NCBI RefSeq assembly: GCF_003790525.1 | Contig: NZ_CP033635.1 | Strand: one strand, 5' to 3' | From: Escherichia coli | GTDB lineage: Bacteria > Pseudomonadota > Gammaproteobacteria > Enterobacterales > Enterobacteriaceae | DNA: 64,000 nt | Shown: piece by piece, positions 3,822 through 60,006 of the stretch | How positions within the stretch are numbered: the stretch's first letter is position 1 | Layout: the number at the start of each line of letters is the position of its first letter | Notes under the pieces: model-generated | The model's input: only the letters and a program-made list of their open reading frames with translations | Told to the model about the DNA's origin: nothing | Database searches by the model: none | Made by a program: the position numbers and the translations under genes

Positions 3822-4592
3822 GTGCCTGGTTTGAAGATTACGCTTTTGCAGCAACCACTGGTGTGGATGGATGGCCCTGCCAACCTGCGTCATTTTGATC
3901 GTCAACTGGAAGGTATTACCGGACGCGATGTGATCGTTCTACCGGAGATGTTTACCAGCGGCTTTGCCATGGAAGCGGCAGCTGCGTCGCTAGCACAAGA
4001 TGACGTAGTGAACTGGATGACAGCCAAAGCGCAGCAGTGCAATGCGCTGATTGCAGGCAGTGTTGCATTACAAACGGAGTCTGGTTCGGTTAACCGCTTT
4101 TTGCTGGTTGAGCCGGGCGGCACGGTACATTTTTATGATAAGCGTCATCTGTTCCGAATGGCAGATGAGCATCTGCATTATAAAGCGGGCAATGCGCGAG
4201 TAATTGTGGAATGGCGCGGCTGGCGTATTTTGCCGCTGGTGTGCTACGACTTACGTTTTCCTGTGTGGTCGCGCAATCTCAACGATTATGACCTCGCCCT
4301 GTACGTCGCCAACTGGCCTGCTCCGCGCTCTCTGCACTGGCAGGCATTGCTGACAGCCCGCGCGATTGAGAATCAGGCGTATGTGGCGGGATGCAATCGC
4401 GTCGGCAGCGATGGCAACGGCTGCCATTATCGCGGTGACAGCAGAGTGATTAATCCACAGGGCGAGATTATCGCCACCGCCGACGCGCATCAGGCAACGC
4501 GCATTGATGCGGAGCTGTCGATGGTGGCGTTGCGGGAATATAGAGAAAAGTTTCCGGCATGGCGGGATGCGGATGAATTCACATTTCGTTAG
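3822..4592 (+). CDS. yafV: Omega-amidase / C-N hydrolase (nitrilase superfamily) YafV, 256 aa
   Basis: ORF 3813..4592; likely GTG start at 3822 placed 9 nt after AAGGAG (3807-3812); product (M)PGLKITLLQQPLVWMDG... Confidence 0.85.
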   Translation: MPGLKITLLQQPLVWMDGPANLRHFDRQLEGITGRDVIVLPEMFTSGFAMEAAAASLAQDDVVNWMTAKAQQCNALIAGSVALQTESGSVNRFLLVEPGGTVHFYDKRHLFRMADEHLHYKAGNARVIVEWRGWRILPLVCYDLRFPVWSRNLNDYDLALYVANWPAPRSLHWQALLTARAIENQAYVAGCNRVGSDGNGCHYRGDSRVINPQGEIIATADAHQATRIDAELSMVALREYREKFPAWRDADEFTFR

Positions 4593-4653
4593 AGGGTGAA
4601 TATGGCTACGAGATAAGTTTCGTGGCTATTTTTCTCTGGAACTTAAACGACGA

Positions 4654-4686
4654 AAGCCCGAATCAGTAATGATTCGGGCTTTCTGA
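4654..4686. terminator. Hairpin aagcccgaatc-agtaat-gattcgggctt between yafV 3' end and aspV 3' end
   Basis: 11-bp inverted repeat with flanking T-rich sequence on both strands; lies downstream of both convergent genes. Confidence 0.5.
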
Positions 4687-4690
4687 ATAT

Positions 4691-4767
4691 TGGCGGAACG
4701 GACGGGACTCGAACCCGCGACCCCCTGCGTGACAGGCAGGTATTCTAACCGACTGAACTACCGCTCC
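4691..4767 (-). tRNA. aspV: tRNA-Asp (GUC)
   Basis: Reverse complement reads GGAGCGGTAGTTCAGTCGGTTAGAATACCTGCCTGTCACGCAGGGGGTCGCGGGTTCGAGTCCCGTCCGTTCCGCCA, including CCA end. Confidence 0.97.
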
Positions 4768-4899
4768 GCGTTGTGTTCCGTTGGGAACGAGGCGAATATT
4801 ACGGATTGCCTCACCCTTCGTCAACGGTTTTTCTCATCTTTTGAATCGTTTGCTGCAAAAATCGCCCAAGTCGCTATTTTTAGCGCCTTTTACAGGTAT

Positions 4900-5631
4900 T
4901 TATGCCCGCCAGAGGCAGCTTCCGCCTTTCTTCTGCACCAGATCGAGACGGGCTTCATGTGCCGCAAGCTCTTCATCTGTCGCAAAAACAACGCGTAACT
5001 TACTTGCCTGACGCACAATGCGCTGAATTGTTGCTTCACCTTGTTGCTGTTGTGTCTCTCCTTCCATCGCAAAAGCCATCGACGTTTGACCACCGGTCAT
5101 CGCCAGATAAACTTCCGCAAGGATCTGGGCATCGAGTAATGCCCCGTGCAGCGTTCGTTTACTGTTATCTATTTCGTAGCGGGCACATAACGCATCGAGG
5201 CTGTTGCGCTTACCGGGAAACATTTTCCTCGCCACCGCAAGGCTATCGGTGACCTTACAGAAGGTATTGGTCTTCGGAATATCGCGCTTAAGCAACGAAA
5301 ACTCGTAGTCCATAAAGCCGATATCGAACGCTGCGTTATGGATCACGAGCTCCGCGCCGCGGATATAGTCCATGAACTCATCGGCAACCTCGGCAAACGT
5401 GGGCTTATCGAGCAAAAACTCATCGGCAATACCATGTACGCCAAAGGCTTCCGGATCCACCAGCCGATCGGGTTTGAGATAAACATGGAAGTTATTGCCC
5501 GTCAGGCGACGGTTCACCACTTCAACGGCACCAATCTCAATGATCTTGTGGCCTTCATAGTGCGCACCAATCTGATTCATACCGGTAGTTTCGGTATCGA
5601 GAACGATCTGGCGTGTAATTGCAGTGCTCAT
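4900..5631 (-). CDS. dnaQ: DNA polymerase III epsilon subunit (3'-5' proofreading exonuclease), 243 aa
   Basis: ORF 4900..5640; trimmed to [20 protein letters not shown]... the recognised DnaQ N-terminus. Confidence 0.93.
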
Positions 5632-9112: not shown

Positions 9113-9150
9113 ATAAAAAAGGCACCGATTCCCCCGGTGCCTTTTTTATT
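9113..9150. terminator. Bidirectional intrinsic terminator between convergent mltD and yafE
   Basis: aaaaaa-GGCACCG-attccc-CCGGTGCC-ttttttattt: GC stem flanked by A-run and T-run. Confidence 0.7.
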
Positions 9151-9920
9151 TATGCCGCTTTATGTGCTTCTAACATGATGATATCACTGGTGAAAGAGCC
9201 ATCATTCTGCAAGGCAAAATACGTTTTCACCTCTGTCGATGCGCTCTGTTGGTAAATGCGAATAGCGTCTACTAACGCTTCTGGCGTACGCATTCTCGCT
9301 ACCCATGAAGAAAATTCCAGCGGTAACTTATCTGTAATTAAATTATCAACTATCAGATTGGCTTCATTGATTAACTTCAACCACTCACCGCTGGCGTAGT
9401 TTCGTACGTGAGAGGTATCGCGTAATGCTTCTACCGTCTGTAACCAGATGTCGCGCACTGGATGACCCGGAGACATTACGTCCATCACAATCAGCCTACC
9501 GCCGGGTTCCAATACCCGATTCACTTCACGCAGTGCTGCACCAACATCATGCCAGTGATGGGCAGAATAACGGCTGATAACAATATCAAATGCGTTATCG
9601 GCAAATGGCAGACTTTCGGCATAACCCTGGCGGGTGGTGATATTTTTCAGTTGCCGGGCTTCGGCAGCTTGTGCCACGACATCCAGCATTTGGGCAGATA
9701 AGTCATACGCCACCACCGCGCTCACGTTCTGCGCAGCGACAAAGCTGGCATGCCCTGCTCCGCAGCCCATATCAAGTACACTTGCATCAGGATAATCAGC
9801 CAGACGCACCGCCAGGCGCTGTAAATCTCGCCCGGATGCATGTACGGTACTGGTTAAATACTCACTGGCCTGCGAGCTAAACTGCTTTTCTACGTGGTCA
9901 TGGTGGGATTGTGTTGTCAT
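9150..9920 (-). CDS. yafE: Class I SAM-dependent methyltransferase YafE (256 aa as ORF)
   Basis: ORF translation with glycine-rich SAM-binding motif VLDMGCGAGH; N-terminal extent uncertain. Confidence 0.8.
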   Translation of the reverse strand: MTTQSHHDHVEKQFSSQASEYLTSTVHASGRDLQRLAVRLADYPDASVLDMGCGAGHASFVAAQNVSAVVAYDLSAQMLDVVAQAAEARQLKNITTRQGYAESLPFADNAFDIVISRYSAHHWHDVGAALREVNRVLEPGGRLIVMDVMSPGHPVRDIWLQTVEALRDTSHVRNYASGEWLKLINEANLIVDNLITDKLPLEFSSWVARMRTPEALVDAIRIYQQSASTEVKTYFALQNDGSFTSDIIMLEAHKAA

Positions 9921-9993
9921 TCTGTCCTTTTATTGTTTGATTAAAAAGGGCAGCGCCAAACGTTGGTCTGCCCTGTGGCAGACCTGACATACC

Positions 9994-16156: not shown

Positions 16157-16330
16157 TCACAACCCGAAGATGTTTCACTTCAGAGTTGCGAAAATTTGAG
16201 AGACTCACGAACAACTTTCATTGTTCAGTGTTTCAATTTTCAGCTTGATCCAGATTTTTAAAGAGCAAAACTTCGCAGTGAACCTTTGCAGGTACACTCT
16301 GAAGTATTTTTTATTTAATCACTACAGAGA

Positions 16331-25725: not shown

Positions 25726-25750
25726 TAAAAGCCAGCCTCGTGCGCAAAAT

Positions 25751-25848
25751 GCCGGATGCGGCGTGAACGCCTTATTCGGCCTACAAAATCGTGCTAATTC
25801 AAAATATTGCATTGTATGCTTTAGGCCTGATAAGCGCAGCGCATGAGG
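25751..25848. repeat. REP/BIME element pair between convergent yaeF and nlpE
   Basis: gccggatgcggcgtgaacgccttattcggcctac (canonical REP) and aggcctgataagcgcagcgcatgagg in inverted orientation. Confidence 0.8.
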
Positions 25849-25880
25849 CAATATTTCATTTGTTTCTGTCTCAAGACGGG

Positions 25881-58538: not shown

Positions 58539-59963
58539 TTACTGCATTAACAGGTAGATGGTGCTGTCGCCGCGCTGAATGTTCAGTGCCAGCACAGACG
58601 GTTTGCTGTCGAGAACTTTACGCAGTTCAGCGATGTTTTTCACTGCCTGCTGGTTCGCGCCAATAATCACATCACCTTTCTTCAGGCCGATCTGCGCAGC
58701 CGGAGTGCCCGTTTTCACGTTGTTCACCACCACGCCCTGATCTTTGCCTTTGTTACTCATCTCAGCGCCTTCAATGCCGTTGAAGATGGTGCTGGAATCA
58801 ACCTGATTCTGGCTGCTCTGCTGAAGTTCCAGGTTCACGTTAACCTGCTTCCCGTCGCGCAGTAAGCCCAGGGTCAGTTTGCTACCTACCGGCATAGTGC
58901 CCACCTGAGCACGCAGTGCGGCAAAGCTGCTGATTGGCTTACCGTTCAGTGAGGTGATCACATCACCCGCTTTAATGCCCGCTTTCGCGGCGGAAGAATT
59001 CGGCAGAACCTGGCTTACGAAAGCACCGCGCTGGGCGTCAACTTTCATCGCTTTCGCCAGATCGGAGTTCAGCTCAGTGCCCATAATACCCAACTCACCG
59101 CGTTTCACCTGGCCGTATTCCACCATCTGCGAGGTCAGGTTTTTCACCATGTTGCTCGGGATAGCAAAACCGATACCGATGTTGCCGCCGTCCGGTGCGA
59201 GGATCGCGGTGTTGATACCGATCAGTTCACCGTTCAGGTTAACCAGCGCACCACCGGAGTTACCACGGTTAATCGCTGCATCGGTCTGGATGAAGTTTTC
59301 GTAGTTTTCGGCATTCAGGCCGCTACGCCCCAGCGCAGAGACAATCCCGGAAGTTACCGTCTCGCCCAGACCAAACGGGTTACCAATCGCTACGGTGTAA
59401 TCACCCACGCGCAGTGCATCAGAATCCGCCATCTTAATTGCGGTCAGGTTTTTCGGGTTCTGGATCTGGATCAGCGCGATATCAGAGCGCGGATCTTTGC
59501 CAACCATCTTCGCGTCGAACTTACGGCCATCGCTCAGTTGGACTTTAATCACCGTCGCGTTATCAACAACGTGGTTGTTGGTGACGACATAGCCTTTATC
59601 GGCATCAATGATGACGCCGGAACCCAGCGCCATGAATTTCTGTTGCTGGCCGCCACCATTACCGCCCTGGCCACCCTGGCAGAACGGAGAACTCTGGAAC
59701 GGAGAACCTTCCTGGCAGAACGGAGAATCATCACCGAAGAACTGCTGGAAATTACGCGGCATACGCGGCGTATTAACGGTTGTGCTACCTTCTACGTTAA
59801 TGCTGACCACTGAAGGCATCACCTTTTCGAGCATCGGTGCAAGGCTTGGCATCTGCTGGGCTGTCGTTGCTGAAGAAGTCTCAGCCGCCGTTGCAGAGAG
59901 CGGAGATAACGCCAAACCTAAACTCAGAGCCAGTGCACTCAGTGCTAATGTGGTTTTTTTCAT
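58539..59963 (-). CDS. degP: Periplasmic serine endoprotease/chaperone DegP (HtrA), 474 aa
   Basis: ORF translation MKKTTLALSALALSLGLALSPLSATAAETSS...; catalytic GNSGGAL, two PDZ domains. Confidence 0.96.
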   Translation of the reverse strand: MKKTTLALSALALSLGLALSPLSATAAETSSATTAQQMPSLAPMLEKVMPSVVSINVEGSTTVNTPRMPRNFQQFFGDDSPFCQEGSPFQSSPFCQGGQGGNGGGQQQKFMALGSGVIIDADKGYVVTNNHVVDNATVIKVQLSDGRKFDAKMVGKDPRSDIALIQIQNPKNLTAIKMADSDALRVGDYTVAIGNPFGLGETVTSGIVSALGRSGLNAENYENFIQTDAAINRGNSGGALVNLNGELIGINTAILAPDGGNIGIGFAIPSNMVKNLTSQMVEYGQVKRGELGIMGTELNSDLAKAMKVDAQRGAFVSQVLPNSSAAKAGIKAGDVITSLNGKPISSFAALRAQVGTMPVGSKLTLGLLRDGKQVNVNLELQQSSQNQVDSSTIFNGIEGAEMSNKGKDQGVVVNNVKTGTPAAQIGLKKGDVIIGANQQAVKNIAELRKVLDSKPSVLALNIQRGDSTIYLLMQ

Positions 59964-60006
59964 GTATTTCAGTCTCGATTAACAGATAACGCAAAATTGC
60001 TGTGTT

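What the first reader, a model, noticed from the sequence alone, without database searches (positions are those of the whole stretch)
4593..4767. Unoccupied aspV tRNA site: aspV directly abuts yafV with no island and no yafT-ykfM-yafU-yafF segment
tRNA-Asp aspV is a recognised integration hotspot in E. coli (pathogenicity and T6SS islands in some lineages; a short yafT-ykfM-yafU-yafF segment in K-12 as I recall it). Here only about 98 bp, containing a single hairpin, separate the aspV 3' end from the yafV stop codon. I see no integrase, no direct repeat of the tRNA 3' end and no cargo. This looks like an empty, ancestral-like configuration and helps place the strain's lineage.
Basis: partly seen in the sequence, partly recalled or inferred. 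Interest (0 to 1): 0.4.

Follow-up and report, generated by a model that had tools for sequence, protein, structure and literature searches.

The report
Empty, ancestral-type aspV tRNA island site
In this E. coli strain (SMS-3-5) the tRNA-Asp gene aspV sits 98 bp from yafV with only the two genes' own terminators between them; this is the original, unoccupied enterobacterial form of a known island hotspot, shared by about 14% of complete E. coli genomes, so it is real but ordinary.

Summary
yafV (3822-4592, +) and aspV tRNA-Asp(GUC) (4691-4767, -) are convergent and 98 bp apart, with dnaQ and rnhA next. K-12 MG1655 has 2,411 bp there (yafT, ykfM, yafU', yafF'). The window is 100% identical to E. 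coli SMS-3-5 (phylogroup F, ST354).

The spacer holds two hairpins, not one:
- a yafV terminator at 4602-4629 followed by a T-run;
- a 14-bp-stem aspV terminator at 4652-4683.

No integrase, cargo or partial tRNA copy is present.

The "ancestral-like" reading is supported. Species from about ten other enterobacterial genera, plus a non-coli Escherichia, have the same compact yafV-spacer-aspV-dnaQ layout. They carry the same aspV hairpin, which is 99.7% paired with three compensatory pairs.

756 of 5,426 complete E. coli genomes (13.9%) share this junction, including IAI39 and ST131. So it is only a coarse lineage marker.

Occupied genomes lack window 4580-4683 altogether. This includes yafV's last three sense codons (EFTFR* here, EFRLW* in K-12). 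A plain deletion of an island could therefore not recreate this spacer.

The occupied yafV-side junction (ISAs1 remnant, Rhs, VgrG) is shared with E. albertii.

This is a known hotspot in its known empty state. Interest is low.

The parts
3822..4592 (+). yafV (2-oxoglutaramate amidase), 256 aa, GTG start. Its C-terminus ...DADEFTFR* is specific to the empty allele; K-12 has ...DADEFRLW*.
   Evidence: ORF list and sequence; RefSeq annotation of SMS-3-5; C-terminal comparison
4580..4683 (.). 104-bp segment found only in the empty/ancestral allele. It has no counterpart in the K-12 locus. In E. coli it is present in full only in the 756 genomes with the compact junction.
   Evidence: blastn breakpoints against K-12 at 4579/4580 and 4683/4684; census of the segment
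4593..4690 (.). 98-bp yafV-aspV intergenic spacer. It contains two convergent terminators and nothing else.
4602..4639 (+). Intrinsic-terminator-like hairpin (12 pairs, 4-nt loop) followed by TTTTTCTCTGG. Inferred to be the yafV terminator.
   Evidence: terminator scan; RNA fold of the + strand, -43.2 kcal/mol, z = -7.2
4640..4683 (-). aspV terminator: a perfect 14-bp stem (4652-4665 / 4670-4683) with a 4-nt loop, starting 7 nt after the tRNA CCA end, with tail CGUCGUUUAAGUU. It is conserved across Enterobacteriaceae.
   Evidence: inverted repeat I1; fold -23.7 kcal/mol, z = -7.0; 22-sequence alignment with 99.7% of cells paired and 3 pairs changed on both sides
4691..4767 (-). aspV, tRNA-Asp(GUC), intact with encoded CCA end
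   Evidence: ARAGORN; Rfam RF00005 at 67.7 bits; 100% identity to K-12 aspV
4795..4824 (-). Sigma-70-like promoter match (TTGACG, 17 nt, TAATAT) upstream of aspV. This is a candidate aspV promoter from a consensus match only.
4900..5631 (-). dnaQ, the conserved neighbour upstream of aspV. It fixes the identity of this tRNA-Asp copy as aspV.

Best explanation
This is the native, unoccupied form of the yafV-aspV intergenic region. Two convergent transcription units end here. yafV stops at 4592 and is followed by its own hairpin plus T-run terminator (4602-4639). aspV is probably transcribed from a promoter near 4796-4824, or read through from dnaQ. It ends at 4691 and is followed 7 nt later by a 14-bp-stem terminator (4652-4683). 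No foreign DNA lies between them. This arrangement is the ancestral enterobacterial one. In most E. coli, a T6SS island or its remnants (in K-12, yafT-ykfM-yafU'-yafF') occupy the slot and have replaced window 4580-4683, including yafV's last three sense codons and usually the original aspV terminator. SMS-3-5, like about 14% of complete E. coli genomes, carries the allele that kept the original spacer. Shown directly: the anatomy, the absence of att scars, the census, and the outgroup conservation and covariation. Inferred: that the two hairpins act as terminators, and that the allele reached this strain by descent rather than by later allelic replacement.
For: Anatomy. Strain identity: 100% identity to NC_010498.1 at two places whose spacing matches the window exactly; phylogroup F, ST354. 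K-12 carries 2,411 bp with four genes or pseudogenes in the slot. Homology breaks at 4579/4580 and 4683/4684. No tRNA-derived repeat is present. 756 of 5,426 genomes have the contiguous junction, and exactly 756 carry the full 109-bp spacer query, so every compact E. coli genome has this same ancestral spacer and none is a K-12-type deletion product. Ten outgroup genomes have yafV, a 75-125 bp spacer, aspV and dnaQ: a non-coli Escherichia, Leclercia, Pseudocitrobacter, Pseudescherichia, Kluyvera, Siccibacter, Entomohabitans and others. The aspV hairpin is alignable in 22 sequences, 99.7% of cells pair, 3 of 14 pairs carry double (compensatory) changes, and pairing falls to 51% or less when partners are slid. 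Outgroups with cargo still keep the hairpin next to aspV, with the cargo between it and yafV.
Against: The tail after the aspV hairpin (CGUCGUUUAAGUU) is U-poor for a canonical intrinsic terminator, and the simple scan did not call it, so termination there is inferred from conservation. E. albertii already carries the occupied-type yafV junction with an ISAs1 remnant, Rhs and VgrG. The island allele is therefore old, and the E. coli ancestor may have been polymorphic or occupied. A lineage could have regained the empty allele by homologous recombination with an empty donor; this was not tested.
Confidence: 0.87

Rival explanations
1. The empty allele is ancestral DNA, but SMS-3-5's lineage once carried the island and regained the empty allele by homologous recombination (allelic replacement) from an empty-site donor.
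For: Both alleles coexist within E. coli and within the genus: empty in L002 (a non-coli Escherichia) and in 756 E. coli; occupied in E. albertii and about 4,580 E. coli. The empty allele occurs in unrelated backgrounds such as phylogroup F and B2-ST131. The flanks are conserved core genes suited to recombination.
Against: Flank divergence from K-12 is ordinary (97.7% and 98.0% identity; 97.2-99.6% across the window's collinear blocks). It shows no obvious imported tract. Empty-site genomes differ from the window by up to about 3% over the 701-bp junction, so the allele is not a recent sweep. No direct test was run.
Confidence: 0.2
2. Recent precise excision or deletion of an aspV island in this strain left a clean-looking site.
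For: tRNA-linked islands elsewhere can excise precisely. K-12 and strain Z0117EC0005 show that islands at this site decay by deletion.
Against: No att-like tRNA repeat or other scar is present. The aspV islands are described as lacking an integrase and direct repeats. Occupied E. coli alleles lack window 4580-4644 entirely, and all but 89 also lack 4645-4683, so deleting an island cannot recreate the 98-bp spacer or the EFTFR* end of yafV. The spacer is collinear with outgroup spacers.
Confidence: 0.03
3. The compact junction is an assembly artefact, with a collapsed or missing island.
For: None.
Against: The window matches a finished genome, and 755 other independent complete assemblies have the identical junction.
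Confidence: 0.01

Closest known systems
E. coli K-12 MG1655 aspV-yafT-ykfM-yafU'-yafF'-yafV segment
   Same: Same flanking genes in the same order: fadE, ivy, yafV on one side and aspV, dnaQ, rnhA on the other, at 97-98% identity.
   Different: K-12 has 2,411 bp of island remnant, including an ISAs1/H-repeat fragment (yafF) abutting yafV. It also has a different aspV terminator and a different yafV C-terminus (EFRLW*). The window has none of this and instead carries the 104-bp ancestral segment.
aspV-associated T6SS islands of E. coli (EHEC EDL933 37-kb cluster; SE11 ECSE_0213-0239; EAEC 042 Ec042-0210-0226)
   Same: Same chromosomal slot between aspV and yafV.
   Different: Those strains carry 20-37 kb of T6SS genes. 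The window carries nothing. The SE11 paper already noted that the segment lacks an integrase, phage genes, transposases and direct repeats, and that MG1655 probably lost it.
Salmonella SPI-6 / SPI-20 at aspV
   Same: aspV is a recognised hotspot where different T6SS islands were acquired, without obvious direct repeats.
   Different: Different genus and different cargo. The window shows the unoccupied state.
Classical tRNA-linked, integrase-mediated genomic islands (for example the P4-type-integrase GI-pheV, which SMS-3-5 itself carries)
   Same: Association with a tRNA gene.
   Different: GI-pheV has an integrase next to the tRNA and an attR repeat of the tRNA 3' end. At aspV the boundaries lie 7 or about 46 nt beyond the tRNA and inside yafV, with no repeat.

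Membership tests
tRNA-Asp gene aspV (the copy next to dnaQ) | Cloverleaf tRNA with GUC anticodon, located immediately downstream of dnaQ | tested here: met
   ARAGORN; Rfam 67.7 bits against a gathering score of 29; 100% identical to K-12 aspV, with dnaQ adjacent
Occupied tRNA-linked genomic island (integrase/att type) | Integrase gene adjacent to the tRNA | tested here: not met
   Only 98 bp separate aspV from yafV, and no ORF of 20 aa or more lies within the spacer
Occupied tRNA-linked genomic island (integrase/att type) | Direct repeat of the tRNA 3' end (attR or an excision scar) | tested here: not met
   The 26-mer (up to 3 mismatches) and the 15-mer (up to 2 mismatches) hit only the intact aspV and aspU. 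No relevant repeats were found.
Occupied tRNA-linked genomic island (integrase/att type) | Cargo genes absent from the empty-site reference | tested here: not met
   The window is collinear with K-12 except for small indels, and it has less DNA than K-12 at this site
Ancestral (unoccupied) yafV-aspV junction | Same compact gene order in outgroup genera | tested here: met
   Ten outgroup genomes have yafV, a 75-125 bp spacer, aspV and dnaQ
Ancestral (unoccupied) yafV-aspV junction | Spacer sequence homologous to the outgroup spacers | tested here: met
   The aspV-proximal ~50 bp align in 22 sequences at 86% mean column identity. The yafV-proximal half is alignable only with the closest Escherichia outgroup, L002.
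Rho-independent (intrinsic) terminator: aspV hairpin 4652-4683 | Stable GC-containing stem-loop directly after the gene | tested here: met
   14-bp perfect stem, -23.7 kcal/mol, z = -7.0. Covariation at 3 pairs and 99.7% of cells paired.
Rho-independent (intrinsic) terminator: aspV hairpin 4652-4683 | U-rich tract immediately 3' of the stem | tested here: inconclusive
   The tail is CGUCGUUUAAGUU. It was not called by the consensus scan, but GTCGTTT is conserved across genera.
Rho-independent (intrinsic) terminator: yafV hairpin 4602-4629 | Stem-loop followed by a T-run | tested here: met
   12 pairs, 4-nt loop, tail TTTTTCTCTGG; fold
Rho-independent (intrinsic) terminator: both hairpins | Transcripts actually end there | not testable with these tools
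   Needs Term-seq, 3' RACE or a Northern blot

The most novel reading that the evidence does not exclude
The yafV-aspV slot may be a family-wide, integrase-independent hotspot in which cargo lands between two convergent terminators rather than in the tRNA. Examples are a gamma-glutamyltransferase plus peptide ABC transporter operon in Enterobacter, a CpxP/Spy-like gene in Citrobacter, and T6SS islands in Escherichia. In Escherichia the empty and occupied alleles would be an old polymorphism crossing species boundaries: E. albertii shares the ISAs1-Rhs-VgrG junction that rewrites yafV's last three codons. The 89 genomes that keep the ancestral aspV terminator next to a T6SS island would be an intermediate, showing that the common K-12-type junction arose in two steps.
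Probability: 0.4. Interest if true: 0.3.

Novelty: already known. Interest (0 to 1): 0.15.

Why it matters
The finding has little impact on its own. It confirms that SMS-3-5 lacks the aspV T6SS island and its K-12-type remnant at this site. It also gives a clean reference for the ancestral junction, which is useful when delimiting aspV islands in other genomes. The true boundaries are window 4579/4580 on the yafV side and 4644/4645 or 4683/4684 on the aspV side, not the tRNA 3' end. As a lineage marker it only separates about 14% of complete E. coli genomes (including phylogroup F strains and ST131) from the rest.

Tried and rejected
- An att scar: searches for partial tRNA 3' ends and a general repeat search found nothing beyond chance.
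- A hidden gene or RNA in the spacer: no ORF of 20 aa or more lies inside it. Rfam at E <= 1 gave only sub-threshold hits to the terminator hairpin (Thr_leader terminator portion, HPnc0260), which I rejected as chance or generic hairpin matches.
Only the 64-kb window was checked, through its collinearity with K-12.
- Whether SMS-3-5 has a T6SS elsewhere: a literature search found eight papers. I did not read them for this question, so it is unresolved.
- A deletion-derived compact junction: rejected because the counts of genomes with the compact junction and with the full ancestral spacer are identical, 756 and 756.

Full report
**What is in the sequence**

The finding's coordinates are exact.
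- ARAGORN and Rfam place an intact tRNA-Asp(GUC) at 4691-4767 on the - strand.
- yafV runs 3822-4592 on the + strand, with a GTG start and 256 aa.
- The gene order is fadE, ivy, yafV, then aspV, dnaQ, rnhA, yafS, gloB, mltD and onward to aspU and rrnH.
- The window is 100% identical to E. coli SMS-3-5 (NC_010498.1) at two places. Their separation of 52,520 bp is the same in the window and in the genome.
- The RefSeq annotation of that genome shows the same layout.
- SMS-3-5 is O19:H34, phylogroup F, ST354 according to PMC11537424.

**The spacer**

- 4602-4629 has 12 pairs and is followed by TTTTTCTCTGG on the + strand. The consensus scan calls it a terminator, and it sits where a yafV terminator should be.
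- 4652-4683 is a perfect 14-bp stem with a 4-nt loop. It begins 7 nt after the CCA end of aspV on the - strand and folds at -23.7 kcal/mol, z = -7.0.

No ORF of 20 aa or more lies inside the spacer. Rfam finds nothing there above noise.

*K-12 spacing.* MG1655 has aspV at 236931-237007 and yafV at 239419-240189. Between them lie yafT, ykfM, yafU (pseudogene) and yafF (pseudogene), a gap of 2,411 bp.

*An att scar.* The last 26 nt of the tRNA (up to 3 mismatches) and the last 15 nt (up to 2 mismatches) match only the intact aspV and aspU genes in the whole window. A repeat search of 4300-5000 gives only short chance matches. There is no scar.

**Where the alleles differ**

Alignment to K-12 breaks at window 4579/4580 and resumes at 4683/4684.

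The left break is inside yafV. Both alleles encode 256 aa, but the window ends ...DADEFTFR* and K-12 ends ...DADEFRLW*. The right break is 7 nt beyond the tRNA, so K-12 has a different aspV terminator.

The 104 bp at 4580-4683 have no counterpart in the K-12 locus.

**Census of the 5,426 complete E. coli genomes**
- 756 (13.9%) have the contiguous yafV-aspV-dnaQ junction.
- Exactly 756 carry the full 109-bp spacer query. Every compact E. coli junction is therefore this same allele, and none is a K-12-type junction collapsed by deletion.
- Carriers include IAI39 and O25b:H4-ST131 strains.
- A further 89 genomes keep only 4645-4686, the aspV terminator, next to aspV and then carry an island. Strain AR_0077 has a T6SS cluster there (TagK, TagJ, TssE, TssF, TssG, ImpA-family protein). 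Strain Z0117EC0005 has a decayed remnant with a K-12-type yafV end.
- About 4,550 genomes have the K-12-type flank after aspV, in two sequence variants.
- The yafV-side junction of occupied genomes abuts an ISAs1-family (H-repeat) transposase remnant, which is what K-12 yafF is.
- O157:H7 has a yafT-like gene followed by a full T6SS cluster in the slot.

**Polarity**

A scan of GTDB species representatives with YafV returned 80 loci. Ten of them have yafV, a spacer of about 75-125 bp, aspV and dnaQ. These are:
- a non-coli Escherichia lineage (L002, 91.5% DNA identity to the window over the junction);
- Leclercia, Pseudocitrobacter, Pseudescherichia vulneris, Kluyvera, Siccibacter and Entomohabitans;
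- three unnamed Enterobacteriaceae.

All ten carry the same hairpin after aspV.

In a 22-sequence alignment, 99.7% of the 308 cells of the 14-pair stem are paired. Three pairs carry changes on both sides: A-U to G-C in 7 sequences, U-A to C-G in 2, and G-C to A-U in 2. Pairing collapses to 51% or less when partners are slid. This alignment also includes outgroups with cargo and one E. coli T6SS-remnant genome.

The hairpin is thus a conserved structural element and the native aspV terminator. The compact arrangement is ancestral for the family.

**Cargo in outgroups**

Outgroups that do have cargo keep the hairpin beside aspV and carry the cargo between it and yafV.
- Enterobacter asburiae has a gamma-glutamyltransferase, a five-gene peptide/glutathione-type ABC transporter and a GntR-family regulator.
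- Citrobacter youngae has a CpxP/Spy-like gene.

No integrase was seen among the ORFs I examined in these two loci.

E. albertii has the occupied-type yafV end (...GFRLL*), followed by an ISAs1 remnant, an Rhs core protein and VgrG. The occupied allele is therefore old, or it has crossed species boundaries.

**Interpretation**

The site is the original convergent-terminator intergenic region, unoccupied. A deletion of an island cannot have produced it. Occupied E. coli alleles lack 4580-4644 entirely, and all but 89 also lack 4645-4683.

The only way an occupied lineage could become empty with this sequence is by homologous replacement from an empty donor. I cannot exclude this for SMS-3-5's ancestry and rate it at about 0.2.

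**Published context**

The literature already describes aspV as a hotspot for T6SS islands without an integrase or direct repeats.
- SE11 paper, PMC2608844, which also suggests that MG1655 lost the segment.
- EDL933, PMC5363993.
- EAEC 042, PMC2808357.
- Salmonella SPI-6 and SPI-20, PMC2907695.

**Verdict**

This is a known polymorphism in its known empty state. Interest is low.

Noticed in passing
window 4580-4592: The last three sense codons of yafV differ between the empty allele (TFR*) and the occupied allele (RLW* in K-12, RLL* in E. albertii). The island boundary lies inside the gene, yet both alleles keep a 256-aa protein.
   Followed up: partly
L082 5880-6123; L083 2892-6123 (E. coli AR_0077 and Z0117EC0005): 89 E. 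coli genomes are an intermediate haplotype. They retain the ancestral aspV terminator (window 4645-4686) next to aspV, followed by a T6SS cluster or its remnant, with a K-12-type junction at yafV. This suggests the common K-12-type aspV flank arose in a second step.
   Followed up: partly
L014 10821-18598; L009 10850-11359: In other genera the same yafV-aspV slot holds non-mobile-looking cargo. Enterobacter asburiae has a gamma-glutamyltransferase, a peptide/glutathione-type ABC transporter and a GntR regulator. Citrobacter youngae has a CpxP/Spy-like periplasmic protein. In both, the cargo sits between yafV and the conserved aspV terminator.
   Followed up: partly
L003 10606-17218 (E. albertii NBRC 107761): An ISAs1 transposase remnant, an Rhs core protein (1,424 aa) and VgrG directly follow yafV. 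The roughly 85 bp after the breakpoint are homologous to the E. coli K-12 junction.
   Followed up: partly
window 56507-56637: yaeI, present in K-12 between dapD and yaeH, is absent here; 130 bp stand in its place. This dapD-yaeH contiguous form is common, in 3,338 of 5,426 genomes.
   Followed up: yes
window 9150-9920 (-), indel at 9757-9950: The yafE-like SAM-dependent methyltransferase is full length here (256 aa). K-12 yafE is shorter (207 aa) because K-12 lacks about 190 bp at its 5' end.
   Followed up: no
window ~49084-49088 and ~50979-50990: K-12 has 146 bp more between pyrH and frr, and 134 bp more between rpsB and tsf. These are probably REP-type intergenic elements that the window lacks.
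   Followed up: no
window 25729-25859: The nlpE-yaeF intergenic region is not alignable with K-12 by megablast: 130 bp here against about 174 bp in K-12.
   Followed up: no
window 16164-16263, 51749-51835, 59958-60003: Expected Rfam elements are present: StyR-44 in the rrnH spacer, t44 upstream of rpsB, and the HtrA thermometer upstream of degP. All are ordinary.
   Followed up: no
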